In this document: in pieces, positions 5,701-28,754 of the stretch
Numbering within the stretch: the first letter of the stretch is position 1
Layout of the letters: every line of letters starts with the position of its first letter
Assembly (NCBI RefSeq): GCF_003704095.1
Contig: NW_020843402.1
Location: 62,001-126,000 of the forward strand
Length of the DNA: 64,000 nucleotides
Origin: Pocillopora damicornis
Lineage: Eukaryota
Reading direction: 5' to 3'
The notes under the pieces: model-generated
The model's input: only the letters and a program-made list of their open reading frames with translations
What the model was told of the DNA's origin: nothing
Databases searched by the model: none
Translations under genes and position numbers: made by a program

Positions 5701-7092
5701 TTTGCTTTACGATCTACATACCGTAATCCAGTTCTCAGTGCTCGAAAAAAATGATAAGCAATTCCCGAAAAAAAAAAGGAAAAAAAAAAAACAGTGTGGT
5801 AGGTGTCCTACTTTTCAGGACAAAATAATTGTTTATAAAAACAGGATCAATAAAAAGTTAGCAGTCATATTTTAGCGAACGTTTTCCAAACTCTTACACG
5901 TGATTTCAAACCAGCGCAATTTGCCCTCACCAACAATAAAATCAAGCCTTCTGTTATTGTTTACCTATTTGGGAGAGATATAACAGACCTCACCCCCGCT
6001 GAGGATGGACATTTCAAAGGTCCTTCTGACACCACGTAGTAAAACATTCAGTGTTTCCTGGATGTCCCACCCAAATTACGTTCCCCATTACGTTAGGGAA
6101 CAGTTAACTCATGAGAGTAAATCTGGATAAGTTGATGATTAGACAAATTATTCATTCCTTCACGGACTAAAGAAACATTCTCACGCCTCAAAATTGTTTT
6201 TCTTTCGGCTAAACATGTTTTCCTGTCGGTAACAGTAATTTAACTCCTACAGCTTATCGTAGCTTGAGAAGTAACTTAGCTGAAGACCACTGCATGTCTT
6301 CTGCAAAACATAACTATGCTTATCAACAGAAGAACAGACAAATGTATAACGTGCTGAATGTGTCGGCGATTGGCTGTAATACCATAGCGAGCTAAACGAG
6401 CACACATGCCGTGAAATGCAGATTAAATAATTGCTTTATTTTTCATCAGGGTCATAAATCACTAACCTCTTGAATAGCCTGTATTTAAACTCTATTTCGG
6501 AAGGAGCCCTAATGGCGCCTTCAACATTTTAGCGCCGTTTGCGTGCAGAATAAGAAAATAATTAGTCATATAAAACACATGTAATAAGGTTATTGATCGC
6601 CTGAGGTCGTGCCACAGTTGTCAATCCTGTTTGTAAAGTTCTCTGAGGAATCAAAGGCTTACCGACTTCCTGTGAAAGATACTGTCAGTATTGACAGACG
6701 GTGTATCCTCTAAATTAGTCAATAGTTGGCTTTCCGCTTCTAAGTGGTCTTAACTGAAGATTTATTAAGATTCTGAGGAAAATTAATTCGAAATCAGTTG
6801 AATTAGCGGCTCGCGACATCTGAAGAGCGCATATCGTATGTTCCGTTGGCCACTTGTCTCCAGGTCTTGCGTGTTAAACTGCCGATAGCAGTCTGTGATA
6901 ACCTTCGCTCTTGAATCTTCAATTTCCATCTGATAACTTCATCTACTGACAGACCACAGACACTGCCAAGGCAAGTCTATTTTTGATACTGATCGTTTAC
7001 AAATAAAAGCCTTAATAGTGACTGTAAATGTTTTATTGTTCCTGGTAGTATTGTATTGGTGCACGCGCTGTTCGTGACTTGCTCTGTTTGGG

Positions 7093-7128
7093 CGCCACAT
7101 CGTATCGCCACCTCGTATCGCCACCTCG
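7093..7128. repeat. 13-bp tandem repeat (CGCCAC[A/C]TCGTAT, ~2.7 copies) upstream of the EGF gene
   Basis: cgccacatcgtat cgccacctcgtat cgccacctcg seen directly. Confidence 0.8.
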
Positions 7129-7656
7129 GTATTCTATGTTTTACTTACTTTCTCTCTTGGGTTAAACTCATGACTTTTGTTTTCACTAGCGAAGAGCTGT
7201 AGTTTGGTAAACATGTAATCTAAACCTGTTATTCATGGTGAAGGTTTTTTTGCCTTTAAACCCCATTTGAGGTCTCCTTCAATCTCCCAATTGACTGATT
7301 TGCTCGTGCTACGTGTGGGTGGCTGTCACAGTAACGCTTGTTGGGACATGCAATGGATAACCTGAAAGAAATATTCTCTTTTTCTCGTCAATTGATAATT
7401 TGGATCACAGCAGGGTTACGGAAATTTGAGCCCCATTAGGTTAGCGTATATTATTGCGTAGTGAAATCCATTCCGTCTCACTCTGTGACTTTTTTTCATC
7501 GCAGGTTTAAGCCGCGTTAAACTCTCTTGACTACACGTTGATCTGAGGATCCGCTGTGGTCTGAAAAGCTCTATAAGAACTGAACGAGAAACAAGAACGT
7601 GGTCAGACTGGTATTTTCCAGAAATAAAAGAGGAAGCATTTCAAGAGTGGTACACC

Positions 7657-10600
7657 ATGAATTTACAAGTTAAGTTTGCGCTGATGTGCGCGGTGTGTGT
7701 GATGTGCGTATTTAAATCGTGTGAAGCTCGATCCAAACGAATTCGACCTGTGATCCACAAATCATTGCTTGTTGTTGACGAACAAGGAATCGATGTAATC
7801 ACAGATGCGTCCGAGTTGACCAAGAATGCTATGACCAAGTCTCGCAAACGGATTTTTATGGACGACCACAATTTTATCAAGCGGGTGGCATTGGTTGAGT
7901 CTTTCCTAAACAAAACATCGAAGGAAGGCGGGCCGTGGAGCATAGAAGAGTGCGCTTTTAAATCGACGCAAAACAAGCGGAAGGAAAACAAGCAGCTGGC
8001 TGCGCTTCACAAGAACATACGCCGTACATTTGGTGTGACTTGGTCCAAAATCAAATACAGAGATTTACGGAGACCCCTTTACTCCGTTTTGGCCGCCAGG
8101 ATTATCCTGGAAATGGCTGTACCGTCAATTCCCCGTGGTTTGAGAAATCAAGCCAGGCTTTGGTTGGAGACCTACCATGAATGCGCAAAGAAACTCAGCC
8201 ACCCACAAGTATGGGAAGACACGAGGAGCAGATTTATACGAGGCGAGTGTTTTGATTTGTTTTATTTTATCCTAGAGTTTATCCTAAGCAGTAGTAAAAT
8301 GTCTCATGTAAAAGGAATTTTAAGCTTAACAGAGGAATGCAAGCATTTAAACCGGAAGCTCAGTAGTGGGTTCCGGTTCGGGACATATTTACACTGATTA
8401 AACCGTACAAGGAACCAAAAGTAGAAGGGTCCTTGAGAAATACGTGAGTGGTTCTATTTTTGCATGGTTTATTAGGGAAGTCGGCCTTTAGAGTAGCATT
8501 CTCAATGACCCGTGTGTAAGTAATTTTCTGCTATTTCTACCGCGTGCGTCCGGGGAGAAAATTGATCTACAGATGTCGCTCACGCAAGACCCTTACTTTG
8601 TACTTTATATCCTAACCGTGTGCTATTCTGAGAGAGATAGGCCACGAAAGAAGTGCTTTTCTATAGAGGCATGAATAGAATGATTCTACCATCATTTTTC
8701 AAACAACCGTGTGGTATTCGCAAATAAGCAAGTAGCGGCTAATGGCCCAAGATAAATCTCAAATTTCTGAACCAAAATACCCGTCATTAGTGAGAGGAAT
8801 TGGTTACAGCTTTAAAAAGGGCTGTGTCAGCCTTCCTATCCCAGAAAACCTGATCTTTCAGGTTTTTTGCTTACCCTGTGGTCTCGGGGTAGTTTTGAAT
8901 TCGCGGTAGTAGCATCGTCTTTCAAGTTGTAAAAAAGTTATGAAGGAGAAATCTGCAAAAACTACGGTGTTCTTTATTACTTGTAAGCCTGGCAGTTGTT
9001 TAAACCTGTTAAAAGAAATATGTCGCTTGTTGTACTCAGAGTTTCTTCTCGATGTTCCCCTTATTATTGATGGAGATAAGTGTTTCATATGCGAGATATT
9101 GAAATATGTTTTTTTCCCTTTTTTCATTAACCAGTTACAAGGCGACATTTTTTTTGGCGGCCGCAATTTCACATGAGGTCAACAAGCAACTTGAAGTACG
9201 GGTATTGATTAAGTTAGGCGATAAGATAACTGTAGGGAAAGAGTTTGGCACGTTAGCGGTAAGCCCGAACTGAATAAGTAACAGCTGAAGAGCTGTGAGA
9301 ACCGTAAGGAAAGAAGCTTGCCAAAGAAGCTTGAAAAACTACAAAAATGCCGATCAAATAAGGAAAAAATGCTAAAGAGTTGAGATTTGCTTCAGCTTGG
9401 CGTTTGGCTACTTTTCCAAACTTCTAATGATGTTTGATTTGCCTCACAGAGCCACATTCCTTCCAGACTGTTCGGCTCTGAATACGAAGAAGACGTAAAA
9501 AATCTCCTGCTAAAATTTCTTTTGACTAAAATTCGAGCTTTTTTATCGTTTGATGAGAAAAACACATTCTACATTAGGAAATCGCACTGGCATTTTCAGA
9601 GGTAAAAGGTTGCGTATTTGAGAGCAAACGTTATTCCTAAATCACAGTGGATGCAAGGATGGTTTAAGATTTGTTTTTAAAACCCTTTCATTCTTCCGGA
9701 CTCTTGTTTTTCTTATCAAAACTATGTTTTTTCATTCAGTTCAGTTTGAAAGCAGTTGGAATGGCTTGAAGATAAAAACAATCGGAGGCGATGAACAAAC
9801 AGGATTTGTGGAAAATCCTAAATGTAAACATCATTTCAAATACCGATTACTCATTCGGTGGCATTCAGTTTATTTACCCCTGCACGTTTTTGCTGTCGAT
9901 TATGTTGACACATGTTTCGTTATCGAAAATATGTATTTGTTCAAGAATAACGAAGAGGAAAGTACTTAATAGTTTGGCTATGATTATATTTCCTGTTTGC
10001 CAACCATCGATTGATTCAGCCCACCCGCATGTCAATCGTTGACACCTAAGTTTTTTTTCCACCCATGCACGAGGCTTCTGAGCTTACTGTGCTGTTCATT
10101 TTGACGGAGCTTATTCGTGATTATCCTTGGCAATTGTTTGTTTAGTCTTGTGAAACATTCTGATATTTCCACAGTACAAGCTAGTGCTCCAATAAAGTTT
10201 TTCGCCTTGTAATGATTGCTGTGCACCCTGGTCGGTCGCTGAGTGGAGTTTCATTGAGCACCAGATTTCGAGAGATATCAATACTTAGTTTATCTTAAAA
10301 AGAAAAAGAGTTGCTTTTAAGGGTTAAGCATCTTCACTTTATGTTTTTCCCACGAGAAACTTTTTTCAGGCCCATAACAAACAGCGAACTGATGAAAAGA
10401 AGTTGTCAATAAGAAAATTCATTATTCGAAATTTTAACTGATGTCATTGCTATACACGTGAATATGGTTTATTACCTATGGCCGATTGCATTTTTTCTAC
10501 GGTTAAAAAACGGAGATAGTTATGAACAAGCAGAAGTGCCCAACAATTTCCGTATTTTTTCGTGGAACTGGTTTGTTGTCCCACGCCGAGATGACCATTT

Positions 10601-13600
10601 CATACTTCCTCATCTTTGATATACAGCTGGGTTAAATTTCCTCTACTCAGTCACAGTAATGTTTGTGTTTTTTGTCACGTGATACTCTGCCTTCGTTGGG
10701 CGAAGACAGAAAAAAACCTTATTTCATTTATCGTAATTATATTCGCATGAACTAAGGATTACCAAAAAACAAACGATCGATGAATTTGGGACGATAGAAA
10801 AAGATCCTTCGACTTGACGTTGGCATAGTGGGAAACAGATGCAGTTACAATGTGAAGAGCTGTGTGTAATTCACAATCGTTTTGTTGATGTCATGATATA
10901 CATATGAATTAAAAATTTATGTAACATCTACATCAAGCTCCCTATCTGTTTTTATTTTCGCCTTCTGCTTCACGACTCTGGTTTTATTTTCTCTGGCTCA
11001 GCTGCTGGTCAATTTAGAGGAAATGTTTAGAGATATACAAAGTCTTTTTCTTTTTGCACGACGAGATCGAAGAAATGAAAAACTCCTCGATATCTTTGAA
11101 GATTTTCTGTTTGAAGTTTCCCAATGTTTTCTTGGACAAAAGCGGCTGACTCGGAAAAAAGAAACTTAGAACTCATTCCGGAGACACCAATCTGCGGTTT
11201 TCAACCAACTACTTTGAGAGTCATGTCTCACGCAAGCCGTCGAATTGGTGGTTTTAATCACGATCAGTTCAATTTATCTGCGATCTTTAAGACGTCTAGG
11301 TGCAAGGTCACATTAGGATGCTTTTTAATTATGCCTCTCAATAGCCATATTGAATTCGTTCTTAAAGATCTTAACCTGTATCTGTAGATGGTAAATGCGG
11401 GCATAAGTGTGATATTGCGGTGATTTTTTTAGCGCATATATTCGAAAAAAGATCCAATTATGATCCTAATTGAATCAGTATATCTGGTTTACAGGCTTGA
11501 CCTCATGTCTCCCTCTGATGTGTTTAATAAACTCCAATTCTTTTCACTCTAGTAGAGGAAGAATCAAACACATTGTAGCCGACCTCACTTTTTTTTTTTC
11601 TTCAATTCGTAAACTATTGCCGAGGGCATGGGATCTTTTTCTTTAGAAGGTCACCCTAACCTTCAGAAAAGCAAAATAAACTCGAGATTTCCTCCCAGGA
11701 GTCTGCACATTTCCGATGGGTTTTTATGTCAGCACGTACATATCAAATAAGAACCGTTAGTTTTTATAAAAAAAGCCTTTTAGCAAAAAGGGGCAAACAG
11801 TATCATAGTGGAGGCCGATTTCATGAAAACAAACCCTTCAATATGGTTTGCGCGCACGCGAATTTACGAATTGAGCATCTTCATTAGACGGAAAAAGTCA
11901 AGTTAAAGAAAGCACGATGGACTCAATAATGAACTTACAGGCCCAAACTTGCGACAAACTCTGCGGCGGGTAATTTGAAATTGAGCAATATCTCAATTCA
12001 TCATATACTCTCATTTTCTGTGGTAACCGAAAAACCGCAGATTTTCTTAGGTTGGCGAAAGCCGAGAAACCAATCCCCTATTCGCAAAAGCGAACTTTCT
12101 GATGCACCTCTTGATATTTTTTGCACCTTTAGAAATTATCGTGAAGTAATCAGCAACTTGACAAACTGCATTCTGAAAACATAAAATAGTTCGATATACC
12201 TCTAACAATGCAGAAAGCCGTGACTGTTCTGTATATTATTACTTATCGGTCAAGTACCAACGGAAATAGTGTCGAGCTGGTCAGGTGAGATGATCATTGA
12301 TTATTAGATTTATATTACCTTTCACGAGTCTAGACATACAGAGGACATGCAAAAGAAATCAGAAGTATCAGCGAACTTTACAGTAAGAAGGAACCTTAAA
12401 TATTTGTAAGCAGACTTAATATGCTTTTACTTTTGTGGTTGGCATGTTAATGGTTTTTTAGTAAAAATCGTTGCCGCTCAGCTCCAGGTCAGTGAAGAGG
12501 ATAAGGTCATGGAATAAACTCACCTACTTATCCGGTGATAGGATTTGTAGCAAAGAGATTTCCGTAAATTCTCTTTTTCCCTCGCAAGAATCCCATGAAG
12601 TATAATTGATCATTATTCAATTTCAGCCTCTCTCCTTGTTGATAATCAAACGAACCCCCAGGCCATTTATGATAGCGTTTCGAGCGTTAGCCCTTAGTCA
12701 GAGCGAAGGACGAAGGGCGAACGCTCGAAACGTCAGCCTTTAAACTCTTTACGGTGACCAATTTACGTTTCCAACTCAGTTGATAACATTAAATCACCCT
12801 GTGATAATCTCTTAACGACGCAGCACTACGGTTTCTTTAGAAACTTACCTCCTTTATCTATTTATAATGGGTTAGGGCCGCGTCAGCATTACAAGAGATT
12901 AAAAGATGTGTTTGTAAAATGAACTCAGAGCTTCACCTGGTGAAGTGAGAAGAATTGAAGTCGTCTGAGGTATAAAACAACCCCGCATCAGTTTCTTTAT
13001 CCTAGGGTTTCAGTAAGCGTTAAGTGTCCTAAAACTCCCCATCAGCAGTCCTGACTGAAGGCTTAAGCTCAAAGTGAACGACGCATTGTTTTCTTCTTTT
13101 CTTTTAGCGTAGTGCTACGGCACTGATCTTCTTTAATATACATCAACTCGCCGGGAATGATTTTGGACATGATACGATTATCAACAACCGGGGTGCAGTT
13201 GTCCAAAGAGCTAAATCGCTATCCAGCGGATAAGAGCTAACAAAATGTACCGTGCTATTCACCGTATAGGGAGTTACTCGGCGGATAGCGTTATTTAACC
13301 TTCCAACAACCGGCCGGGGCCAGTTACAGATAGCTTCCTTTTTTTCCCTTGGTTATTACTTGTGTCTCTCTGTTTCTCTTTGGTTGACGAGAGCATCTGA
13401 GCGTGAGACTTTTGCTCGTTTACAGGCTACTGAAATACTTAAAAGGCATATTTTGTACGCGTAGTTTAGCTGTGTGATTTTCTAGATCAATGAAAAAGTG
13501 ACCAAAGCTGACCAAACGCCCTTGGGTAACGAGGACTGAGAAGTTGTACTGATTTGGGAAGCTATTTTACTTTTAATGTATTTACTTGGACATTCCATTA

Positions 13601-16600
13601 GTCATGTTCAGAGTAGAGATTACGGCAGAGTCAGAAACTAAGAAATGTAGTCGTTTGAAGCCTTTGTGAAGACAAACTCATTTCAAAACAAACAAGCTGT
13701 TTAGTGTCATATTATTCAAGACAATGTTATACTGATTTCATTTCCTTTGTTTTTCCGCCCTTAATAGTTGTGAAGAATTCTTGTGCCAGTAACTTTCTAA
13801 AGTGTGAACATGTCTGCCGTGAGTCAAGCAAGGGTAGAGCGAAATGTGAGTGCCAGTATGGCTATACCTTGCAAAATGACGGCGTGTCTTGTTCAGGTAA
13901 ATAAAATCAAGCCAGTCATTGCTTTGTCGCATCAGCGGGAATTATCATCACAATTAACTATAGAGTTTTCTTTACCTCTTGTGATTTTGTTTTTCCCCAA
14001 CTTTCCCAACAACCCAGCTTTGTTGTCAAGGTTCTTTATGGGATAGCAGTCATAAATCTCACACGACGATCACTTCACACCCTAACAAACAATCGAGTAC
14101 TAAATATTTATTTTCATTTCAGACGGAGCTTCTCGTTCTTCAAGCGGGACTAAAGCACCCTCTCCCGAGCTGGAAGTTGAAACCGGATGTGGGAATGGGC
14201 TTAAGTGTGATCATAGGTGTGTTGAATTTGGCGGTGTCCCTCAGTGCGCATGTCATAATGGTTACCAGCTGCATATGAATGGTTTTACCTGTGATGGTAA
14301 GTGGAATTGTACAGTAGTCAACGTTACTTGCCGAAAGTTAGCAACCTTCCACTAGAAGTGATTTACATGTAACTTCTCCCTACAATATCCATACACTATC
14401 CAACAAACAGGTAGTGAGATAACTCACACTTATCAGTTAGAGGTTGTTATCACGATATAACACTAAATTCTTGTAACTAAATTACAAAGAAATGTGTTAC
14501 AGCTAAATGGGAGAATTAACAATCAGATCTTGGGAGTTAAAGGGTTAAAGCCTTTCAATCAGAGAATGATTCCAATGTATGTGACCACATTAGTCTGTTA
14601 ACAGTGCTCCATCATTCTTGTTGGGTTTCAGATATTGACGAATGCCGGCATTCGCCATGTTCACAGCTGTGCAAAAATACCCCAGGCTCATTTTCCTGTT
14701 CGTGCCAGGCGGGTTTCAAGATTCAGTCAGATAAGGTTACCTGTGAAGGTAAATCAAGGAGTTCCCTCATCCTGTTTATCTTTACTATTGGAAAACAATG
14801 CAGAGACAAAATTCATGTTTATAAGGTAGCATAGTCGGCGTTTTATGGCCGTAGATGTAAATGATCTACTGAGTTGTCCATATCTGTTAACTTGTTCTCT
14901 CATCACTTTTAATAAAATTTTTTGCCAGAAGAAACATATAATTAAAATCGATATAGTCTAAGTGTTCAAGTTTTCCATTCTTTACATTTAGGACGAGAGA
15001 TGACTTTTGATTAGAGGTGCATTCTCGCTTAGCGGATAAATGGGTTACGTCATAGTCAGATACTCAAGCGAGCCGAGAACACAGAATGTTACTTAGCAGG
15101 CAAAGAACGAATGAAACTGGACATGAACGTAACTGTTGCGTGTGTTTATTTGCAGAAGAGAAGACTAAGTGTTCAATGAATGATATCGCTTGTATTCAGA
15201 GATGTACCGAGTTTGGAAACTGCTCCTGTCCACCAGGTACCGCCATGGGTCCAGATGGCCAAACATGTGTCGGTAAGTCAGGGACGCTGAGTGCACAATG
15301 GTTTGCAAGATTTAGCAGCCAAACATCTCTCAGATACTCATGCTAAGTTATAAGCGACAAGCTCGTGACTTTTGTTGCATGTAAAACGTACAATCTATGA
15401 TTATCAATTGTATGTAGCTATTTTCACTGATAGTTCATAGTCTTACTTTGTTGACCGAACAAGTCAACACACTCACAATGTAACTCACTAAAATAATTTC
15501 CGGTGATTTGGCGCATTTGTAGACATTTGTTGATGTTTCTACCAATTACCAGACAAGATATAGAGTGAACATCATTCAAATACTTTGCGTCGTACTCATG
15601 AGCTTTAGCGTCATATGGGCCAATTTGCAATTGATTTATTAGTAAAGTATGAAGAACTCTTTATCTATAAGAGAACCATCTTTCTTGATACACTATCTCT
15701 TGTTCTCAGATGCAGAGAACGTTTTATGATAACAAACACGTCTTATCTCATACTTCACATCGCCGAGAGCTTCCAAAACAATGTGTGAATCACCTTGAAT
15801 CGTTTACTTAACCAATATCTGAAACCTGGACCACTGAAAAAAAGACATAGTCTTCACGGATTTGTGAAAACTCGCCGTGTCTAAATCAAGAACCCATTTT
15901 CAGTCTAGCTGCCATATCGAGCTTTTTTCACTTAAATGGTCATGCAAATTTTTTTCCACTTTCACTGAGCAGATCATTTCCTTGTTGATTGTTGTGTATC
16001 TTTCTCCTTCAGAGGTAAATGAATGCAGCTTATTCAAAGGTGTTTGTCATCAGAACTGTATCAACACGCCCAGAGGGTACCGCTGCACATGTTCCAAGGG
16101 ATATGAATTGAATGTGAATGGAATTTCCTGTTCAGGTGAAAAAAGTTAGACAATTTAGTGTCTGGGAACATTTAAGAAACGTCACGATTGACGGCTGTGT
16201 TAAGATTTCTGCAATTTAGTGGTTTTAATTCCTCCGTGGATGCAATGGATTCTCAGCCTAGACTAAGACTGCAAGAAATTTGTGATAGAAGAATGAGGGT
16301 AAACATTACTCTTGGAAGTTTTATTGAGTATTCCATATTAATTCGTTGGTTTTTTTAGATATCGACGAATGCGCACGAGGTATCCATGGCTGCCACCACA
16401 ACTGTCGTAATGTTCCTGGATCTTACTTCTGCTCATGTAGCAAAGGATTCCAGCTCAGTGATGACCTGAAGTCATGTGTTGGTATGTGTCGTTCGAATAC
16501 CTTTGAATGCTTTTCTATTTTGAGAGACCTTTTTGAATCACATAATAAGCTGTCATCGTGTCTAAAAAGTGCTTTTGCTTTCGTTTCCTCTAAGTTGAAG

Positions 16601-17475
16601 AACATGTTCACATTTAGATAAACAACTTGGGCGTCTACCCTTTAATTCATAATTTTCTGTTCAGATTCTGAATGAATAAACGAATTTGTTTTTCTTAAAA
16701 CTTCTCTGGTTTTAGATATAAACGAGTGTGCATTGTACCCTGGGATATGCCCCCTTCCTTCGCGATGCCGCAATACCATTGGAAGCCACACTTGTGATTG
16801 TCCCAAGGGATTTGTTAATCACAGACACAAGATTTGTATCGGTAAGTAGATTGCAGTCGTTAAATGAGGTTTGATCAAAGTTAGGTTTCGTTTGAAATTG
16901 ATGTCACCGACAAACTTATTTCAGACGAGAACGAATGCGCAAACTCCAATGGCGGCTGTGACCAGGTGTGTCAGAACTACCCAGGAAGTTACCGATGCTC
17001 CTGCAAGTATGGGTTTATGTTACAGTCTGACAGGAAATCATGCAAAGGTACGCAGATCAGATGATAGCTTTTTATGTTCTAAATACAGTGAAACAGAAGT
17101 AAACCGGCAGATGTAAGTCTAACTAGAGATCACTCGAGTGTTGCTGGTAACAAGATGCTTTTTTTTTTTATTACTCTATATCGACTCAGTAGGTGGATGT
17201 TTTGCGAAAAATATTGAAAATCGAGAATTGTTCTAGAGAGGGTGCATGTTTAGGGGAAACCAAACAACAAAGAATTTTTCACCGAGAATGCTGACCTGCT
17301 TTTGAAGATATTGACTCAAATTAATTAGAATTTTTTCTTTTTGCTTATAGATATCGACGAATGTTCCAGATATTCGTTCCTTTGTCAGCATAAATGTGTT
17401 AACACGCCGGGAAGCTACAAATGTACCTGTCCACCTGGTCTGCGGCAACCTATAAACGGCTTTATGTGTATGTAG
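7657..17475 (+). CDS. Secreted protein, ~580 aa: signal peptide, uncharacterised lysozyme-like N-terminal domain, 9 EGF repeats (6 calcium-binding type), fibrillin/SCUBE-like repeat region
   Basis: Coding exons 7657-8242 (GC donor AG|GCGAGT), 13768-13896, 14123-14296, 14632-14748, 15156-15272, 16013-16135, 16359-16481, 16716-16841, 16925-17047, 17351-17475 (TAG). All introns are phase 1 and the total of 1743 nt is open. Hydrophobic N-terminus [24 protein letters not shown]. cbEGF starts DIDEC/EVNEC/DINEC/DENEC. Probable 5'UTR acceptor at 7504. Confidence 0.85.
12676..12860. mobile_element. Penelope-like element terminal fragment with inverted, degenerate minimal hammerhead-ribozyme motifs
   Basis: cgtttcgagcgttagcccttagtcag (12676-12701) and gacgaagggcgaacgctcgaaacgtcag (12709-12736) form an inverted pair resembling CUGANGA-stemII-GAAA-CGUC. 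The same terminus is attached to a GIY-YIG fragment at 59250-59345. Confidence 0.7.
13189..13323. mobile_element. Degenerate MITE with TATCCAGCGGATA-type internal palindromes
   Basis: gggtgcagttgtccaaag ... ccttccaacaaccggccggggccag termini; internal ctatccagcggataag and ggcggatagcg. Confidence 0.55.
14343..14547. mobile_element. TTAA-ended (piggyBac-like) MITE, left end degraded
   Basis: Right terminus GATCTTGGGAGTTAAAGGGTTAA; left AACCTTCCCACTAGAAGTGAT is a partial inverted match. Lies in an intron of the EGF gene. Confidence 0.55.
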
Positions 17476-18242: not shown

Positions 18243-19182
18243 TTACTTATGTCACAGATAGTGCGAAAAATCCAAGCTCATTTCCTAGCATCTTTGGCAA
18301 TTTTCATGTAGCACCATTACAGCCAAGATTAGTGACGAGCTTAGAGGAACAGTTATTCGTCAGTAATTAACACAAGTTTTGGACAAATAACCTGTCCAAA
18401 TTACCATCCAACTTGTTTTAAAACGTCACGACAGGCCAGAGGACGCAACAAAGACATAAGATAGTTGTGTAACTTCAGTACATGAGTAAAACTTTTTTGT
18501 TTCCTTTGGGTAAGAAGCAAATTTTGTTTAATATCTATACCTTTGTGACTTAAAATAACAAATTTGGTTTTTCTTGAAAGGAACCAAATTAGCCTTTGAC
18601 CAAAGGAACTGAGATACTTCATTGTATACTCCATACTTAGATTTAACGAAAGATCAGATGTTATTTGTAAGAATGGCAAAACAATTGGCCCCATAAGATA
18701 ATTTTACCCTCGATTACAACTTTGAGAGAGGGAAATAATCACAAACACCCTTGCCAATTACGGAACATCCAAATGTTCTTGTAACGTCCCTGCAAGTCTC
18801 GCGGGAAGGAGGAATAGCACTTATCTGACAGTTTAAATTGTACATAAATTTAAATATGAATAAATGATGCTTGCAATTTATAGGATTTCACGTTGAGCGT
18901 AGCGAGATATTAAATGTTCAATTGCAATTTGTTTAACAATCATTTTTTTTGAATGTGCTTTACTGATCCACTAAAACATCGCTCATCCACACTACTTTAG
19001 TCTAATAAAATCAGTAAAAAAGATGCGCAACTTTACAGAAATCCCGATATTTTGTTGTCAAAGAGGCGTTTTCAAGCCCTTGCCGTTGTTGTGTGGAGTC
19101 GCTTGTGGTCTCCTCAGTTCCTTCACACTTCACTTTCTATATCTGTATCCTCACTATTGTCCCATCTTTCTACAGCAATCAG

Positions 19183-22100
19183 TCAGTCGAACTTAGTCTT
19201 CTTGGAGACAGGTTCTTTCATGTCCTCTGCACTGCTGCCCTGTCAAAGAAACACATACACGACTTAAGAAATGAGGAGGAGAAAAATTATTTTGTCGTTC
19301 AAAGACTAGAGCGAGGAAAGAGAGTGTTTAAGTCGTTATAATGGATGAATCGTGATTGGGAGAAGATGAGAAAACATTTGAGTAGTTTTCAGTCGATGAA
19401 AACTTCTCATATCATGTTCTGAGCTTTTTTCGCGTCCCGGCATATAAATTGTGAAATTTGTTTGTTTGCTCTTTTCTTTCAAAGTCTTTAGAATTACCTT
19501 TTTAGAGACGAGGCTGAAAGATAAAAATTTATTTTCTGTTGAGGACTTGTCAACATTAATCTTGACAGCCACTCGGTCAAAGCTTCGGTAGGTGACGTCA
19601 CCATCTGTAAGGGATGGCTCCTTGATTAACAAAAAAAGAAAATAAATGGTATTTCTTGACATCATTCTTGATATTATGTATTACAGTTGCCAAGGTAAAC
19701 TAAGCGTCGGAGAATGGATCATGTGATTTCATCAGGGAATGTCAAGAACACTTACATTCGCTGCGTTTTCTGACACCAAGATTTAACCCGAAAAGATTCA
19801 CACCACATGTCCCCTACAAACCTCCGATGATAAGCGTCATTATTCCTTCGATTTTCTCAAACACCAACGCTCACTCATGAACCTCTTCTCTGCCAAATCG
19901 AAGCTGACTATGTATTGAAAAAAAGTTTGAGAGAAAAACACCTGTTCGTTGTAGGTAAATCCTGATACATCTTGTTTGTTCATGAACACGGTTCCTTCAA
20001 GGCCATACTTGGGGATCAGAATTTGAAGCGCATTCTTACGAACAAACAGCACAAACGCTTCTTCTTCTTCTATAGCCTTTCCTTGGAAAAACAGCTGAGA
20101 AAAGAACATTCCATGAAATAAGCCAAACAGTCTGAGTGCAAAAAAAACAACAAACAAACACTACAAACTCTTTGTGAAGTCTTAAAAACTATGACAAAAG
20201 AATGATATTAAAAACCACACTACCTGGCAATGCAGGTCAATGGAGTCCCGTGAAGCATACTGGGCCATTTTGTGACGGAAGTTCAGATGATTGCACAATT
20301 TCTGAAAGTAAAGAGAAAAGTAAGACGTTAATGACAGTAACGACAGAGATATATTCGTTATAAGATAACTCACTAATTTTGACAGCGAGAGAATGGAGCC
20401 TAGTGGTAAGCTACGAACTGGTTATACCTCAGGTCATACCCACCTGTGTTTTGTCTTTGCTGAGGAGGTCTGGATACGAATCTAAAGCTCCAATTGCAAC
20501 AGCTAGGAGTCTATGTACCAAGATGTCAGAATATCTACAGGTAGGAAAAATTTTAGGTTAATGAAATGTACAGTAATCAAATGGTAAATAAGTAGTAAAT
20601 TAATGGTACATTGGAGCAGTACATACCTCCTGATTGGTGACGTGAAATGTGTATAAATTGGAGTTGCCAAACCGTAATGTTGAAATTCCTCTTCAGGGAG
20701 CATGCCTGAACAGAAGTAAACCGCTTGCATCATGCATCGCGTCGCCATAATTCGAAGCAGAGTGTTAAAATAGGGCTCATCTGGGATATTAGCAGCATTC
20801 AACGAAACAGCGAGAGACTTGGCACTATCCACTTCAAGTTGGACTCCCTATTTAGATACGCAAGTGACGTGTGAGAACAGTGTTGCACAGCAGAGGGGAT
20901 TGAAGGGGGGGGGGGGTAAAATTAACAAATAAATTTCATATTACCGTGTGACCCTCCACTGATCGCGAACAATCGAGGTTCGTTTTAATGTCACGATTTC
21001 CCTATCACTTTACAACATGGGTTAGAATCTTCTATTATTCGGCCGATTCTGACCCGGAATCCAGTTAAGCCTGCGCCACCACGTCTCACCCATGATTTTT
21101 TCATTTCGTCATTACTGGCAATGTTTTGTTTTGTTTTTCTTCTTCTATCATTGCAGGTTTTGACGTAATAAATACAACATTACGTTCAACAATGGCGTTG
21201 TAACAAAATTAAAGGTAAGAGGCGGGTAATCAAAATTGGTTTTGATTTCGGAATAACAAGTAACATTCCCCGTGCATGACATCAATTCCAAACAATAATA
21301 TGGAAATCCCCCTCCCCCCAGGTAAAATGGCTCACCTTGGAGCTCGCAGCCTTCACCAACACATCATAGTTTGCAGCAGGTGGCGAAGGATGTCTCCGTA
21401 AAACGGCAAACTCTGGGAAATTTTGAAAAATTTTCTTGGCGACTGAAATGTTGGCTAACAACATAAATTCTTCCACGAGGGAATTCGTCTCCCTGAAAGA
21501 ACATTAACAAAAGTTAGAGTGGATAATCCTTAAATCGATCACTCAAGGAATCAAAATTAACAGCAACAGCTTGACAATGATAAATAGCTAGCTTACTTGA
21601 GTTCCTTTGTTTGAAGATCTACTGGGTCATGTGTCTCACTGTCTATGTGAAAACGAACTTCTGGAGACGCAAGAGTTAAAGCACTGAAATAAAAAGTAAG
21701 TCAGTGAATGAGTTAAGAAGATAAAAAAAGGAACTGATAAAACGTAATTGTGCAAAGTGTCTGGGTAAGAGAAGAATTCACGTCTTTTCTGGTCTGTATT
21801 GGAGTTCAGATCAAGGTTTGCGGGAACTACTGTTCCCTCAAATACAAGTTTTCTTACCCCTGTTCGACTCTCTTTTGTTTTAGAATCTTTGCCAGTTTGT
21901 TGAGATGTCTTAGGCTCAGAGTTATTTCATCTGTTTGGGTCGGATCATCAATTCGCATCTGAGCCTCGGCATACGTGAAGGAAGTCTGAAAGTTTAAAGA
22001 CAGGATAAATAGTCTTAATTGCAGATAGCCTCAAGTTTACGACGCTGTTTGCTATCAAAACCTACATGTACTCACTCTAGAACAGATAATGCTTTTTTTG

Positions 22101-25100
22101 AACTTCGTGGAGACAATTTCAGCTTGTGGTGTCATTTCCCATATAGATGAAAACGCCAGCCTAAAGTGAGGAATATGCCAAGCCAGTTACATTGCATTAG
22201 ATATGTACCGTGCAAAAAAATGTGTATATAAGCCTTACTAACCTGTCCACATTAGATCTCAGTGAACACAAGTCTGAACTCAGGAGTGCTGGTACCATGT
22301 CAATACGCTGTGTGATAAACATTAAAACAAGTCAATACCAACAATTACGCAAGATTTCAACTCCCAGATAGTAACTTTAGGGATGGAATTTATAGTCTCA
22401 ATTCAAAGATTATCCCGCAAAAGTTTCTTAAGACTTCTATAAGACCCATTTGCACCAATGGTCAGAAGGAGAGAGCTCCTCCGAGAGTAAGGTAGACAGT
22501 TTAAAAAAATATCTATATGAATACATAAGGCAGAAACGAGCTCCATGCTAAACACGCCCACTGGACTGACTTGCGCGTTCCGTCCCTTTATTGTGCTCCA
22601 AAGCTGAAATTTGGAATGAAACAAATAGCGTCTTGAAAATTCCTTTTGCCGCCTAAGAGTGGTGTCTTATTAGTGTCACGAAATCTTTTTAAGTGCCTGC
22701 ATCACATAAATTATGCAGCTGTAAATCACCTTATCTGTGAGATAGACTGTAGTTCCTCTATTAGCTGCCTCAGCATCCAGAGCTGTACCTGGTCTGATAA
22801 AGTGCGTGACATCTGCTATATGTACACCAACCTGATGAATAATAATAAAGACAGTCGGACTGACCATGATCATGCAACAAGATAATTCAAGGTTGGTGAG
22901 GGGATAATTTCAACGCTGAACTTTTCTCGAAGTATTTGAAGTTAAAAATAGTCAAACAGATATTCTAAACATTATACACGTAGTTGAGAATAACGAGAAT
23001 AACATACCAACCCTGTTAATAATCGTCTTTTTTCGCGTACCTCGTAGTTTCCGTTTGGCAGCAATCTCCAGTGCAATGCGTCATCTATGTCTGTGCACCC
23101 CGGAGGATCAATGCTACACACAGCTAGGAGCCTCAAGTCCAAACGACTCTTTACATCCTGCAATGACCGGCACACAAAAATAAACATTTTCCGGCTGAAG
23201 ATAAAACATATTTTCCTAGTACTTTCTTCCCCAGGATACTTCATGCTCATCTTATATGGTACAGATATTAAATTTCACGAAAACGTGCTAATACATCGCA
23301 AGAATCAACTGAGCAACTTCATTCACACTTTACTGTCCCTAAGGCAAGATATGGCCGGAATTTAAGAGTACGCGCATATACGTATTTACTTATTCACTAT
23401 TTCATACCTCGTCTGTGATTGACCAGGGCATGGCGGGAAGATCTTTCAGTACCGCTGCTGAAAAGGGCAAGTGGGGAACATCTCTCTCCAATAACAGAAC
23501 CTCATTTTCTGTTTCTTTGTCACCAATGGTACCAAGTTTTCGGACAAAATGTCCCTTCATTCCACAATAATGAAAAAGAAGAATCATAATAGACTTATTA
23601 GGACACTGGATTTTGCGATGTCACTCGGAAAATTGCTAATCCTTATCGCTGTCCTTTCTGTACCCCTCTAAAGAAGTTGGTTACTCCAATATTATTAGTT
23701 TTGATTCCCCAGCAAACGAATGGTGAAAATTTGTAATTAAAGGTTGGAAGAGGAACCTATAGACGAAACAAAAATCGCGAAATAGGTTAAAATATCATGA
23801 ATAAGGAATCCAAGAAATAGAGAGTCAACGTACAGCCTTCAATCCACACTGATACGCTGTTGGCAATGTCTACCTCACAAAACTACTTGTCCATGCTACA
23901 TAGAAAAGTGTAAACGCAATATTGCTCACCACAGGGTATTTTGAATGCTGAGGCCACGAATCAATGCTAACCACAATCCTTTGCCCCTCAAGTGATGATG
24001 CCTGGCGTGTTTCTATGACAACTCTGGGGATTCTTCTCTCTGCTGCCACAAACAAGTGTCTTGTGCTCTTTGAAATGACAAGGAGGGCAATGATCATAAT
24101 CACATTCAGTGTGGTGCCATTGTTCTACTCCATTGTAAAATAGTCTAAACTGACCACAGTCAAAATTTCTGTTTTCTCCTTACATGTAGAACGTGTTCTA
24201 CTTTATTCTTCACTATTAGTTTCCTTTATTACAATTCACAACATATCCTGTAATATCTGCTGATACAATTCATGAAGAAGATACCTATAATGAGGAGTGA
24301 TATATGAAATTTTTCTCATTAACATTTAAAATGTAATTTGGAAGATTACATTAAAGAAAGATAGGGATTTTATCTTTACTTGAGACTTAGCAGACTTGGA
24401 CAGCACTCCACAGTATGGCCGCCAGTTTCTTTTAATAACACCAACAACCTGTGATGATAAAAAAGATAAAAATTGATCTGCAAACCATATCCAGCTCAAT
24501 AGCTTTGACCTACAAAAAGGAGCTATATTTAAGGAAAAAGTTAATTTGTTTTTACTAAAAGTGTGGAACAAAGAAACATCTTGAGTCACACACGAGGAAT
24601 TAGATCTCAGACCTACAAATTTCTCATGACAGTGCTATATCACCAAGTTACAGTGGTGAGGTAGGCCATTACAAGGTTCATATGTGACACTTGAGGCATT
24701 GTGCATACTGCTATGATATGCAATTTTGCAAGCAACATGTATATGTGTAAATAGAGTTAAGAAATGGCAACCTGTTTAGCTCAAAGGTAGAATAAAGAAT
24801 AATATCATCAATTAATGGAACAGGAGAAAGCCTTGTTGTCTTACCCTTGCCATCAAAATATTTATTGTTGTAGAACATCACTCAGACTACTTCTTTTTAA
24901 GCCTGCCTAACAAAAATTGTTTGAAAATTCTTTCATAACCAAGCTCATATTTTACCATCTCTCTTACTATGTTGTAAACATAATTTACATACCTTTCCTG
25001 ACAACACTTTTTTTGTTCCAAGTTCTTTCTTTGATTCAATCTAAAAAGAAAGAAACACTTGATGTATTTTCAATATGTCAGCTTGATAGCTCGTAGTGTT

Positions 25101-28100
25101 ACACCATCAGCCCAATGAGGAGGAAAGGTAAAGTAAGTTGATACCAAGATACACTCTCACAATAAAGACTGCAATGTGTGACAATGAACTGCAACTTTTA
25201 CTTATCAGCATGCTTATGTGCACAATGTTGGAAATTGTGCATACCCTATGTTTAGAAAATTGATAGAGATTTTCAAGCTCAACAAATGATGACATCTATA
25301 CTTCTAGAAGTAGACTGAGCATGAGTATTCTTGAGTCTCTTGATTCAAGCAATAGGCATGAGGAATTTGTTGTTTTTGAAGAATCTTCATTCTCTTAATT
25401 TTGAACTAGTGGGATATACTCTCCTATCCTGTAAATTAATTAAGTTGCCATTTGTTTGCACTTAAATGTCAAAAAATAGTAAACACGTGTACCATTTTAT
25501 CACTGTTGCTTTCTTCATTGTCATCATCTGAGTCATGTTCAGCTGGTGATGCTGCTGTTACTAATGATGATGGACAAGTCCATTCTTTCTTTGAAAGAAT
25601 CTCCACAGCAACAATGTCTTCATGTACTGCTCGGTTGAGATTTACAAGTCCTTGAATAAATATCTGTCCACAGGAAAAACAAATTCATTGCTAGGTTAAG
25701 TGTGATTTCTGACAAGTACTTGTACTGTACAATATCATTTTTAATGACCCCCTATGTTAAGTTCAGAATGTGAACTCTTCATTAATTAAATTTGTGCCGA
25801 TAACACAATTATTACTACTCTAGAGGAAGAGAAATTATTTATTTGTTACACAGTCAAGTATGATATGTACATGTCAAATGTTTGCATGTTAAGTCACATC
25901 ATTACTTATTATACAAATTTATACCTGCTTGTCTCCATCATGGACAAATACATAAGCCTCAGTGAAGTTTTCTCTGTGGATTTGAAGTTAAAAAGTTAAC
26001 AATAACACAAGAAGCTTTGAAAAGTTTAAAACTACAGAATTTGTTTCAAAAATCAACTCTTTTTGTTGCATAGGGTGAATTATTGCTTGGAACATATCAT
26101 GTCATAAAGGATTGTCTAGATGATTTTTGTAACCGAAAAACTCTTTGTTTCATGGGAGAAATATTTCCTCCTTTTATGCCCTTTCTCATTGTAAAGGACC
26201 CCTTGTCATATTGAATCTATTGTGAGAATTTTACTCAGAAAATTGCTAAGTATGCAAAAAAAGGTAGAACAGACTTTTGGATTGTACAAATGGGAGGGGT
26301 GCAAAAACACTTAGCTGAATAAAAGTTGTAGCAATTATCATTAAAGCATGAATTTTCTTCAATATTCTACAAAAAAAATTTATCAAACTACAGAAAAGGC
26401 AAGTATAAATGTCATCCAACAGAATACAAATATCTGACAAGTAACAATAAACATTCAGACTGCGCTTACCTGCTCCTATGAAAAGCACCCTTGAATATAA
26501 AGAAGAAGGAAGGAAAGAAGAAAACTTTAGAGTATTCAACAAAGTTTTACTATCATTTTGAACACATTCTAAGGACAATAGTACAATAACTGAGACTAGT
26601 AATCACCTGTACATACTTGCCACTTTTTAGGCCAGCCTGTATTTTAGCCATAGGTAGATGTTCTGGGTAAACCCACTTCCTGCTTGTCTTGTCATCTATC
26701 TACAGAGGAATTTCATTTCAACAATACAAATAAAAGAAACAACTTTGACTTTCAAGTATATTTCATGACCAAATGTCGTAACATAGTAAATACCACTCTC
26801 AGTTGGACATTCAAATATGATGAAGCACTGAAAAATTCAAAGTTATAAACATGCAGATGACTGTTGTACCTCATCACGCTGTGTGTTACAGGAGAGTGCC
26901 AATCGGTCAGCTAAACCTTCATTCCCTTCTAGACTTTCAACATACTCTTGAGCTGTGAATACCAATACACAATTAGATTCCAAAAATTGTCATGAACATG
27001 CTGACCAATGTACAACTATTATATTGGTCATTAGTAATTAAATACTTGATGATTTAGATATTAAAAGGTTCCAACAAGGAAAAAAGCATCTTTGGTGAGT
27101 GAGGGAAAAAGTTCCCAGAGTAATAAGAGGAAAATGTTGATTATACCTGTAAAACAAATGATTCCCTCATTCTTTGCCTTTTCTTTGTTTGCTCTGTCAT
27201 TTGTGAGAAGAACAACCTTAATTCTTAGATCTTCATTATTTCCTCCTTCACATTCCTTTAAATGCTCATCATACCAGCTGAAAGAAATCAGCAAAATGAA
27301 ATCTGAAAATAATGTGTATTAAATATTCCACCTAGTAGGCTACTCTCCGAAAAAAAGGAAATTAAAAACAAAACCTAGGCTTTACCTGGTTTTCCACTAT
27401 GCCAGTTGACAATGAAATTCAATAAGGAGATTGGTAGTTAATAGTGACATTACCAAAGACATGAAATGATGACAAAAGCAGAATGCTTTTTATTTCAAAA
27501 CAATTTGAAGCTCTGTGAGTTTTCTAAAAAAGGTTTAGAAAAATAACCAAGCTTTAAATATCACACACGAACATTGCAATTTACTTCTAACTACAAAACT
27601 TAGAGGTAATTTAGATGTCATTTCCTGTTGGATCTGACCAATACCTTGCTGCCACTCTTATTGCTCGGTCATTTCTGTCATTTGGAGATTCTTCCTTTCT
27701 TCTCTCAACATATGTTTCTCTTAAGAGCCAAAACAAGAATTACAAGTTATGAAATGCACAATTATTCTGAAGGTAAATCCTAGCTTTGATAGGATAACAA
27801 TTTTTTTGCTATCATGCAAAGAATGATCCGTAGGGTTCCAAATAGATGCACACTTACCTATGGTGCTCATTTGAAAAAACGAAAAATTTTCTTTGTTTAC
27901 TGGATATCAATTCCCTGATTCTCTTGTAAACTGAGGCATTGAGATGCTGCACCTGAAAGTGATTGGAGATACTTGTCTTAACAAGAGTTGATCTGAATAT
28001 GGCAAAAGAGTAATAAAGAATTATGGAATGTGATCCATGAAAAACATGAAAATGATCATGACTTAAATCAAACAAATTAAAGGATTAATGACAACGATTT

Positions 28101-28754
28101 TAGTGTACTCTTTGCTGAAAATTAAATTCACGTCCAAATTATTGCAAACTAATGTCAAATAGTAGTAATCTGTAATTCTTTTTTTTTTTGTAATACCTGT
28201 ATAACATTTCTGAGGAAGTATAAAAGTCAAAATTACCACATGAATAAATAAATGTTACAAAAGTGATTGCCCATGTGCTTTTCATGTCGTCATGAAAACA
28301 GTTGAATAACAACTAGGATCAAATAAATTTAGAATGTTCTGACAGCGTCTTAAAAAAGAAAGGTTCAGGGCGCATCTCTGAGCTTTCTATTAAGTTCGGG
28401 CCTCTGGATCGTCATGACACAGCTGAATTCAGTTTCAGAACTTGTCTGAAAAACTCACTAAGAACTCACCTCTTGCAAGACAGTTTGTAGAAGTATTACA
28501 TTTGTGAACACTGGATCTTCTAAAACGTCTATCTGATGTAACACAACATTTGTATCAGGCAGTAAATAATGTGGAAATGTGTACAGTTTAGAGGAGTTAT
28601 GAGGCGATGAATCCAGTAAATTTTGATCTGTTTGAGCGCAGTTTCTACAGTGACTTGCTCTGCACCATACATCATCTCGTAAGTAATGTTCACGAACTAT
28701 CTTCATTACTCCTCCCTTTCGTGTCTTCTTGACAAACACCTTGGATCTGAGCAT
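19183..28754 (-). CDS. DIS3: Exosome complex exonuclease RRP44/DIS3 (PIN + CSD + RNB + S1), ~26 coding exons
   Basis: Start [31 protein letters not shown] residues [29 protein letters not shown] catalytic motif [12 protein letters not shown]; also VEEFMLLAN and [19 protein letters not shown]. Exons include 28754-28470, 27952-27858, 27719-27645, 27277-27147, 26489-26470 and a last exon 19239-19183 ([18 protein letters not shown]). Confidence 0.97.
24563..24780 (-). mobile_element. Degenerate tRNA-derived SINE in a DIS3 intron
   Basis: gagtcacacacgaggaattagatctcagacc...gtgctatatcaccaagtta resembles the reverse complement of B-box/A-box tRNA head sequences; heavily CpG-decayed. Confidence 0.45.

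What the first reader, a model, noticed from the sequence alone, without database searches (positions are those of the whole stretch)
7768..8190. Uncharacterised lysozyme/lytic-transglycosylase-like domain mounted on a 9-EGF stalk in a secreted protein
Seen: after the signal peptide comes ...[18 protein letters not shown]8-GGPWSI...[27 protein letters not shown]...IP...QARLWLETY, all in one phase-1-ending exon, followed only by EGF repeats with no TM or other terminal domain. Known: helix-ES (catalytic Glu) followed by GxxQ and a later helix-Y(N/H) is the motif order of SLT/goose-lysozyme folds. From memory, invertebrate proteins contain a similar unnamed domain (RRIAYVES...GGIWQV...DLRKPLYSGLAARL). 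Inference: this is an exon-shuffled, glycan/peptidoglycan-recognising head on a Ca2+-stiffened rod. The Glu (7897-7899) is kept but the GxWQ Gln is Ser, so it may be a binder rather than an enzyme. It is a candidate extracellular-matrix or mucus immune/symbiosis protein and my best candidate for an undescribed system here.
Basis: partly seen in the sequence, partly recalled or inferred. Interest (0 to 1): 0.75.

Follow-up and report, generated by a model that had tools for sequence, protein, structure and literature searches.

The report
Phage-related lysozyme-fold domain in coral protein
A secreted coral protein carries, on a stalk of nine EGF repeats, an unnamed domain whose closest non-animal relatives look like phage cell-wall-cutting enzymes; this points to an overlooked, probably phage-derived family of animal lysozyme-like proteins, of which the coral copy looks partly disabled and may bind rather than cut.

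Summary
RNA contigs of 4 of 4 runs join the head exon (7505-8242, GC donor) to nine EGF exons, giving a 580-aa protein: signal peptide, ~165-aa head, 9 EGF. The head has no Pfam or NCBIfam match. Its predicted fold is lysozyme/lytic-transglycosylase-like (best Z 7.5; 9.1 for a phage relative).

The head is the animal branch of PHROG 3108 ('unknown function'). In phages these genes sit in endolysin position (gene-holin-spanin in PMBT28) or among virion proteins, and keep Glu, Ser/Thr and Gln in 62 of 62 loci. Other animal members reach 53% local identity to a metagenomic phage protein. Rooted on the endolysin-type genes, animals nest inside phages, so phage-to-animal transfer is likely; the root is assumed.

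The domain occurs in corals, anemones, an octocoral, echinoderms, an annelid and a mite, alone or fused to VWA, chitin-binding, CARD or cytochrome c domains. The EGF-stalk clade keeps Glu (11 of 12) but none of 12 has the full site, so it is probably a binder. No activity was tested. I found no description in ten paper searches.

The parts
6971..7504 (+). 5'UTR intron, GC-AG; the upstream non-coding exon ends at 6970 (its start was not mapped)
   Evidence: joint 6968>7503, 3 letters ambiguous, in 3 of 4 RNA runs; ends GCAAGT...CAG
7505..8242 (+). exon with 5'UTR, start codon 7657, signal peptide and the whole head domain; ends in phase 1
7657..7728 (+). signal peptide, residues 1-24 (cleavage after CEA judged by eye; no predictor was run)
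   Evidence: sequence; hydrophobic N-termini in orthologues
7753..8238 (+). lysozyme/lytic-transglycosylase-fold head, animal branch of PHROG 3108; basic core (net +12, pI 10.1)
   Evidence: AF2 pLDDT 93; fold search; PHROG 3108 E=4.8e-5; charge
7897..7899 (+). Glu81, presumed catalytic position, near the C-terminal end of a helix
   Evidence: Glu in 62 of 62 phage/MAG loci and 11 of 12 EGF-clade rows; model residue 52 in helix 44-55
7939..7941 (+). Ser95 at the family's GGxxQ Gln
   Evidence: Gln in 62 of 62 loci; Asn 9, Gln 2, Ser 1 in the EGF clade
7951..7953 (+). Cys99, clade-specific; possible disulfide with Cys176 (inferred, not measured)
   Evidence: Cys in 12 of 12 EGF-clade rows; not among the four commonest residues elsewhere
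8173..8184 (+). Tyr173-His174-Glu-Cys176, at the family's YN motif
   Evidence: Asn in 60 of 62 loci; His and Cys176 in 12 of 12 EGF-clade rows
8243..13767 (+). 5525-bp GC-AG phase-1 intron between head and EGF1
   Evidence: 4 of 4 RNA runs; ends GCGAGT...TAG
13768..13896 (+). EGF1 exon
14123..14296 (+). Ser/Pro-rich linker and EGF2 exon
14632..14748 (+). EGF3 exon (calcium-binding consensus)
15156..15272 (+). EGF4 exon
16013..16135 (+). EGF5 exon (calcium-binding consensus)
16359..16481 (+). EGF6 exon (calcium-binding consensus)
16716..16841 (+). EGF7 exon (calcium-binding consensus)
16925..17047 (+). EGF8 exon (calcium-binding consensus)
17351..17475 (+). EGF9 (calcium-binding consensus) and stop codon; 3'UTR runs on to at least 17794

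Best explanation
A secreted hexacoral protein that holds a domesticated phage-type peptidoglycan-cleaving domain at the tip of a nine-EGF spacer. Shown here: splicing and architecture; homology of the head to PHROG 3108; a predicted lysozyme/SLT-like fold; erosion of the family's site residues in this clade. Inferred: (1) the phage proteins are single-Glu peptidoglycan glycosidases used as endolysins or virion-associated lysins (about 85%); (2) animals took the domain from a tailed phage, probably the virion-associated type, before cnidarians and bilaterians split, and shuffled it as a module (about 70%); (3) in the EGF-stalk clade the cleft was remodelled (loop after the Glu shortened, Gln to Asn/Ser, Asn to His, a new Cys pair, strong positive charge), so that the head now binds an N-acetylglucosamine-rich or anionic glycan, such as bacterial wall or host matrix, with little or no cleavage, while the EGF rod holds it out from mucus or matrix (about 55-60%).
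For: Fold: all 20 chains with Z>=5 for the coral model are lysozyme-superfamily glycosidases by their titles and my knowledge of the entries; best phiKZ gp144 Z 7.5, rmsd 3.9, 139 aligned, and MltE Z 7.3. Phage relative L002: MltE Z 9.1, rmsd 3.7, 121 aligned; six chains at Z>=8. Its Glu42 lies 26 residues after the first aligned residue, MltE E64 and Slt E503 lie 27 after theirs (range ends only). One phage member, L014, passes the Pfam SLT cut-off (21.6 vs 21.3 bits) over the ES and GxxQ motifs. PHROG 3108 is hit by 85 of 92 family members. Context: PMBT28 has this gene, then a holin, then an Rz-like spanin, and none of 54 of its 68 proteins scanned hit an endolysin family. Of 77 loci, 5 have a PHROG holin or spanin neighbour and 6 a large virion or endolysin-domain neighbour. 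Site: E+[ST]+Q+[YF]N intact in 60 of 62 loci, 71 of 164 other non-phage rows and 0 of 12 EGF-clade rows; Nematostella P0013 has Gln for Glu; net charge median +12.5 against -1 and 0. Tree: animal rows lie inside a phage grade behind branches 100/99, 97/89 and 97/97; the EGF clade is 100/100 on a stem of 1.08; one animal origin is not rejected, p-AU 0.47. Parallel decay: both CARD-fused members have Met for Glu.
Against: No activity or binding was measured for any member. Glu81 is kept in 11 of 12 EGF-clade rows, two anemone rows keep Gln, and the head is about as conserved as the EGFs (53-70% vs 54-76% in 5 pairs); this fits a working enzyme too. GH184 muramidases have an Asp near the place of gp13's Gln (PMC10394673, passages), so Gln is not obligatory. 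The Nematostella Gln rests on one predicted protein whose C-terminal part looks mis-modelled. Z 7.5 is in the range the tool calls common for models with no clear match, and Foldseek found no PDB match at E<=0.001 for either model. W, Y, N and R invariance in the loci is partly circular, since the search patterns held them; Gln was in the pattern for the four MAG loci. Most loci (66 of 77) had no PHROG-named lysis or virion-lysin neighbour, and no random-gene control was run. The root was chosen, not inferred; animals form two groups on the free tree, and one MAG row (L087) falls among animals. Many 'animal' and 'phage' labels on unnamed proteins are my inference from signal peptides, fusions or likeness.
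Confidence: 0.5

Rival explanations
1. The head is still an active single-Glu glycosidase, perhaps with shifted specificity (peptidoglycan or chitin); the EGF rod tethers an antibacterial or digestive enzyme in mucus.
For: Glu in 11 of 12 clade rows; Gln kept in two anemone rows; W, P, S, A, Q165, W169 and Y173 kept in 12 of 12. The fold neighbours include a GH23 chitinase and GH184 muramidases. A basic surface is usual for lysozymes (own knowledge).
Against: 0 of 12 rows keep the full site against 60 of 62 phage loci; the Ser after the Glu varies (S5 T2 N2 K2 and one other); Gln for Glu in Nematostella; the loop between ES and GGxW is about seven residues shorter.
Confidence: 0.25
2. The head has left carbohydrate chemistry altogether and is a protein-interaction or self-assembly module of a matrilin/fibulin-like extracellular-matrix protein.
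For: The rest of the protein is only EGF repeats; annotators call orthologues 'matrilin-2-like'; it is a one-architecture clade kept from anemones to stony corals; many relatives are fused to VWA.
Against: The Glu and the Tyr that line the presumed cleft are kept; there is no VWA or C-terminal assembly domain; other members pair with chitin-binding CBM14 domains.
Confidence: 0.2
3. Direction reversed or mixed: the domain is old in animals, and the phages most like animal proteins picked it up from animals.
For: Some phage rows (L001 group, P0152) and one MAG row (L087) sit next to or among animal rows. An animal-to-myxobacterium transfer was proposed for g-type lysozyme (PMC12855814, passages).
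Against: Phage diversity is deeper than animal diversity and spans endolysin and virion roles and several hosts; phages keep the full site; the fold neighbours are mostly bacterial and phage enzymes. Late back-transfer to one phage group stays possible.
Confidence: 0.12
4. Artefact: a contaminating phage or bacterial gene, or an ORF that is not joined to the EGF exons.
For: The head lies in one intronless exon, has phage homologues, and its donor is a non-canonical GC.
Against: Spliced contigs in 4 of 4 RNA runs; the same architecture in Montipora, Porites, Exaiptasia and Nematostella records.
Confidence: 0.01

Closest known systems
PHROG 3108 (phage proteins of unknown function, e.g. phiKO2 gp54, PMBT28 AUZ95556)
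   Same: Homologous over the whole domain (E=4.8e-5 for the coral head; 85 of 92 family members hit, best 1.3e-20); same order of motifs ES/ET, GxxQ, PL...AR, IP, YWxxxYN.
   Different: Phage members have an intact site and sit in lysis cassettes or virion modules; the coral copy is secreted, in a spliced gene, EGF-fused and eroded at the site. The family is not annotated as an endolysin.
Family 1 lytic transglycosylases / GH23 (MltE, MltC, Slt70, phiKZ gp144; Pfam SLT PF01464)
   Same: Predicted fold (Z 6.4-7.5 coral, 7.7-9.1 phage relative); Glu at the end of a helix; ES, GxxQ and YN motif order.
   Different: 11-16% identity; no Pfam SLT hit for any animal member scanned and only 1 of 22 proteins over the cut-off; chemistry (hydrolysis or anhydro product) untested.
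Animal g-type lysozyme (GH23), reported as acquired from bacteria (PMC12855814; PMC11576321)
   Same: Same superfamily, and the same kind of story: a prokaryotic wall-cutting enzyme adopted early by animals.
   Different: A separate family: no Pfam lysozyme hit; salmon g-type scores Z 6.4, below bacterial transglycosylases. PMC11576321 found g-type in two soft corals and not in other cnidarians screened, whereas this family is in stony corals and anemones.
GH184 fungal muramidases (PMC10394673)
   Same: Fold (Z 6.2 coral, 8.3 phage relative); one essential Glu at a helix end; found as an unnamed domain beside a known module.
   Different: [quoted passage not shown]
Matrilin / fibulin-type EGF-array matrix proteins (the database label of the orthologues)
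   Same: Signal peptide and tandem EGF / calcium-binding EGF modules on phase-1 exons.
   Different: No VWA and no C-terminal coiled-coil or fibulin domain; the label comes from the EGFs alone (inference).

Membership tests
Lysozyme-like superfamily | Lysozyme-type helical core | tested here: met
   20 of 20 chains at Z>=5 belong to it (best Z 7.5, rmsd 3.9, 139 aligned); phage relative best Z 9.1, rmsd 3.7, 121 aligned. Predicted models; Foldseek not significant.
Lysozyme-like superfamily | Catalytic Glu at the C-terminal end of the central helix | tested here: met
   Glu81 = model residue 52 in helix 44-55; phage Glu42 in helix 34-43; register with MltE E64 and Slt E503 within one residue, from range ends only.
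Family 1 lytic transglycosylase / Pfam SLT (GH23) | Pfam SLT score over the curated cut-off | tested here: not met
   No Pfam hit for the head at E<=10; 1 of 22 relatives, a phage protein, just passes.
Family 1 lytic transglycosylase / Pfam SLT (GH23) | ES motif | tested here: met
   VES in the window; the second residue varies in orthologues.
Family 1 lytic transglycosylase / Pfam SLT (GH23) | GLMQ-type motif with Gln (motif recalled; also named in PMC12855814 methods) | tested here: not met
   GPWS in the window; Asn 9, Gln 2, Ser 1 in the clade; Gln in 62 of 62 phage/MAG loci.
Family 1 lytic transglycosylase / Pfam SLT (GH23) | AYN-type motif (recalled) | tested here: not met
   YH in 12 of 12 clade rows; YN in 60 of 62 loci, partly by search pattern.
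Family 1 lytic transglycosylase / Pfam SLT (GH23) | Cleaves peptidoglycan to 1,6-anhydro products | not testable with these tools
   Needs an assay.
Animal g-type lysozyme | Sequence match to the g-type family | tested here: not met
   No Pfam or NCBIfam hit and no PDB sequence match under E 0.02 for the family profile.
PHROG 3108 | Profile match across the domain | tested here: met
   E=4.8e-5, profile positions 35-141 of 160; 85 of 92 members.
Phage endolysin (for the phage relatives) | Position in a holin/spanin cassette with no other endolysin in the genome | tested here: met
   Met for PMBT28 (54 of 68 CDS scanned, the rest annotated otherwise or very short); holin or spanin neighbours in 5 of 77 loci. 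One genome only for the 'no other endolysin' part.
Phage endolysin (for the phage relatives) | Demonstrated lysis | not testable with these tools
   Needs an assay.
Matrilin | VWA domain(s) | tested here: not met
   P0002: the 5 best of 7 Pfam families shown are all EGF-type; precomputed domains list only EGF-type families.
Matrilin / fibulin | C-terminal coiled-coil or fibulin domain | tested here: not met
   The protein ends right after EGF9.

The most novel reading that the evidence does not exclude
An unrecognised class of animal lysozymes, taken from a tailed phage's cell-wall lysin before cnidarians and bilaterians split. Intact secreted members kill or digest bacteria in animals thought to lack lysozyme. 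Repeatedly disabled members serve as peptidoglycan receptors: outside the cell on an EGF stalk (this gene) and inside the cell fused to CARD. PHROG 3108 would then be a new endolysin family as well.
Probability: 0.4. Interest if true: 0.87.

Novelty: new variant of a known kind. Interest (0 to 1): 0.68.

Why it matters
The literature treats animal lysozymes as c-, g- and i-types and describes cnidarians as mostly lacking them (PMC12855814, introduction; PMC11576321 found g-type only in two soft corals and mentions unpublished 'non-conventional' lysozymes in Nematostella). This family gives named, expressible candidates for the lysozyme-like activity reported in anemone mucus and for bacterial sensing in corals. 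It would be a further prokaryote-to-animal transfer of a wall-cutting enzyme, here from phage, followed by module shuffling and repeated loss of catalytic residues. It also assigns a probable function to an unannotated phage family and explains phages with a holin and spanin but no recognised endolysin. The coral gene alone is the less exciting part: it is probably a degenerate binder of unknown ligand.

Tried and rejected
Pfam, NCBIfam and PDB sequence search do not name the domain. Foldseek against the PDB gave no match at E<=0.001 for either model; against viral models the one significant hit was an uncharacterised phage protein (TM 0.69). No whole genome is held, so paralogues in this coral were not searched; the window has one copy only. 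The 'longer' search with the family profile was crowded out and returned 6 proteins, so the taxonomic range rests on three look-ups of 10 proteins each (named animals in 7 of 10 clusters, none) and on names. The scan of bacterial and archaeal genomes found only 4 MAG loci with one narrow pattern; this does not show absence from bacteria. My first neighbour list skipped small genes and was redone. Neighbours of the phages closest to animals (L002, L006-L010) got no PHROG name; reading them as virion or ejection proteins rests on gene size and layout. PMC6139136 lists phiKO2 as having two-component spanins but the two passages seen give no gene numbers. P0021 looks like a base-converted read; it is in alignment A3 but not in the counts. 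The Cys99-Cys176 distance could not be measured because model coordinates are not returned. No complex prediction was run: no partner is claimed. Contig depth cannot rank expression. Four look-ups in earlier findings returned nothing.

Full report
1. The gene is real. A 580-aa assembled protein, P0002, is 99% identical over the head and maps onto ten coding exons of the window, nine of them one EGF module each. Contigs of 4 of 4 RNA runs from four studies skip 5525 bases between head and EGF1 and show all eight later joints. Read with the cut shifted within the stated ambiguity, the intron is 8243-13767 with a GC donor; a 5'UTR intron 6971-7504 also has a GC donor. Six of nine EGFs start with the calcium-binding consensus. 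The host is by inference a stony coral: the nearest named orthologues are from Montipora and Porites (61%). The same head-plus-EGF build is recorded in Exaiptasia and Nematostella. Several metagenome gene calls read through at the same exon end.

2. The head belongs to a large unnamed family. It has no Pfam, NCBIfam or PDB sequence match. A search of 1.84 billion representatives gave 470 hits at E<=0.001, of which 150 were returned. Of 71 proteins scanned (P0002 and 70 of those hits, chosen mostly for length), partners were VWA (most often), CBM14, EGF, MAM/LDLa, IgGFc-binding, CARD and cytochrome c; 12 proteins carry two or three copies. Named hosts are Acanthaster, Amphiura, Owenia, the mite Halotydeus, the octocoral Paramuricea and the hexacorals above.

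3. The fold is lysozyme-like. AlphaFold2 with 92 sequences gave pLDDT 93. Against 48,161 chains, all 20 at Z>=5 are lysozyme-superfamily enzymes, led by phiKZ gp144 (Z 7.5, rmsd 3.9, 139 aligned) and MltE (7.3); that they belong to the superfamily I judge from titles and own knowledge. A phage relative scored higher: MltE 9.1, MltC 9.0, six chains at Z>=8. Foldseek found nothing significant in the PDB, so this is a distant branch. The Glu sits near a helix end in both models; its register with MltE E64 and Slt E503 agrees within one residue, judged from range ends only. One phage member passes the Pfam SLT cut-off narrowly (1 of 22 scanned).

4. The closest non-animal relatives are phage proteins. 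The ESM Atlas puts both the coral head and an Amphiura member next to unnamed, mostly viral clusters (0.96 and 0.92; leads only). PHROG 3108 is hit by 85 of 92 members. A viral scan found 407 coding stretches and kept 80. The protein of locus L002 is 53% identical (local) to an Amphiura protein (45% over all aligned columns), while the coral head reaches at most 31% to any locus. In Salmonella phage PMBT28 the order is this gene, holin, Rz-like spanin, and none of 54 of its 68 proteins scanned hit an endolysin family. For 77 loci (90 minus 12 duplicates or annotated records and one without a hit) I scanned 134 neighbours: holin in 4, spanin in 1, 'internal virion protein with endolysin domain' in 3, a very large 'endolysin' family in 3; the others were unnamed or unrelated, and no random control was run. 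I infer two phage roles, endolysin and virion-associated lysin.

5. Direction. A 270-row FastTree and a 91-row IQ-TREE on rows picked by hand (bootstrap not fully settled) agree: rooted on 12 endolysin-type rows, animals lie inside a grade of phage proteins behind branches 100/99, 97/89 and 97/97. Animals form two groups, 8 rows (85/88) and 36 rows plus MAG row L087 (96/87). With L087 left out, one animal clade is not rejected (p-AU 0.47). The root is my choice, and labels of unnamed rows are inferred. Phage-to-animal transfer is the simplest reading, about 70%; back-transfer to some phages is open.

6. The coral clade has an eroded site. On 270 rows (deduplicated at 85%): Glu, Ser/Thr and Gln are each in 62 of 62 phage or MAG loci. 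W, Y, N and R were in the search patterns, so their invariance is partly circular. The full signature E+[ST]+Q+[YF]N is in 60 of 62 loci, 71 of 164 other rows that have all five columns, and 0 of 12 rows of the EGF clade (several of these 12 are single-exon calls whose EGF link is inferred from the clade). The clade keeps Glu in 11 of 12 (Gln in Nematostella), has Asn/Ser for Gln in 10 of 12, His for Asn in 12 of 12, a shorter loop after the Glu, two new invariant Cys, and a net charge of +7 to +17 against a median of -1. The head is conserved about as well as the EGFs, so it is under selection for something. Decay recurs in the family: both CARD-fused members have Met for Glu, whereas all four cytochrome-c fusions look intact.

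7. Mechanism. Most likely the head recognises a glycan through the old cleft and a basic surface but cuts poorly or not at all, and the EGF rod spaces it from mucus or matrix. The ligand (bacterial wall, chitin or host polyanion) is not determined. An active enzyme (25%) and a pure protein-binding matrix module (20%) are the rivals. The kept Glu and the GH184 precedent of Asp near the Gln position (PMC10394673) speak for the first.

8. Novelty. Ten full-text searches found no description of this domain, of its phage link or of PHROG 3108 as an endolysin. The library lacks most subscription papers, and InterPro, CDD, PANTHER and CAZy could not be queried. I saw passages only of PMC12855814, PMC11576321, PMC6139136 and PMC10394673, and search listings of the rest; no supplements were read, and those of the two g-type papers might list members. 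PMC11576321 mentions unpublished non-conventional lysozymes in Nematostella, which may be this family. Animal adoption of prokaryotic wall-cutting enzymes is a known kind (g-type per PMC12855814; GH25 and phage-type cases recalled, from no call). This is a new family of that kind, hence 'new variant of a known kind', interest 0.68.

Noticed in passing
P0090, P0154 and their clade: N-terminal CARD fused to this domain, no signal peptide, Met at the catalytic Glu; 10 of 11 rows of the clade have Met. Candidate cytosolic peptidoglycan sensor. Host unnamed.
   Followed up: partly
P0194 (Paramuricea clavata), P0187, P0057, P0201: Intact-looking domain fused to a cytochrome c whose CxxCH motif lacks the first Cys (GGQCH, ASQCH, GAQCH, AAQCH); two of the four have a clear signal peptide. 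Single-Cys haem attachment is recalled from euglenozoan cytochromes. Unexplained.
   Followed up: partly
window 6971-7504 and 8243-13767: The first two introns of the gene both have GC donors, which may explain truncated or read-through gene calls.
   Followed up: yes
L089 3896-4387 (phiKO2 gp54); L091 46661-47158 (PMBT28); about 16 phiKO2-like loci: PHROG 3108 genes in endolysin position; in the phiKO2-like loci they are flanked by PHROG 27866 and PHROG 15362, both 'unknown function', possibly holin or spanin parts.
   Followed up: partly
window about 12690-12850 and 14340-14550: Intronic stretches with very high summed contig depth and many loose ends in all four RNA runs: multi-copy interspersed repeats.
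   Followed up: no
window about 19000-28900, minus strand: Multi-exon gene that looks like the exosome nuclease DIS3 (recognised from memory, no call), tail to tail with the EGF gene.
   Followed up: no
window 38024-38671 (+), 42532-44208 (-), 44366-46522 (+): A reverse-transcriptase fragment, a 559-codon single-frame DEAD-box helicase-like ORF, and exons of a sorting-nexin-like (PXA/RGS) gene head to head with it; all recognised by eye.
   Followed up: no
L087, L088 (Rhodospirillaceae MAG contigs): About 430-aa proteins with this domain at the C-terminus; L087 falls among animal rows on a long branch.
   Followed up: no
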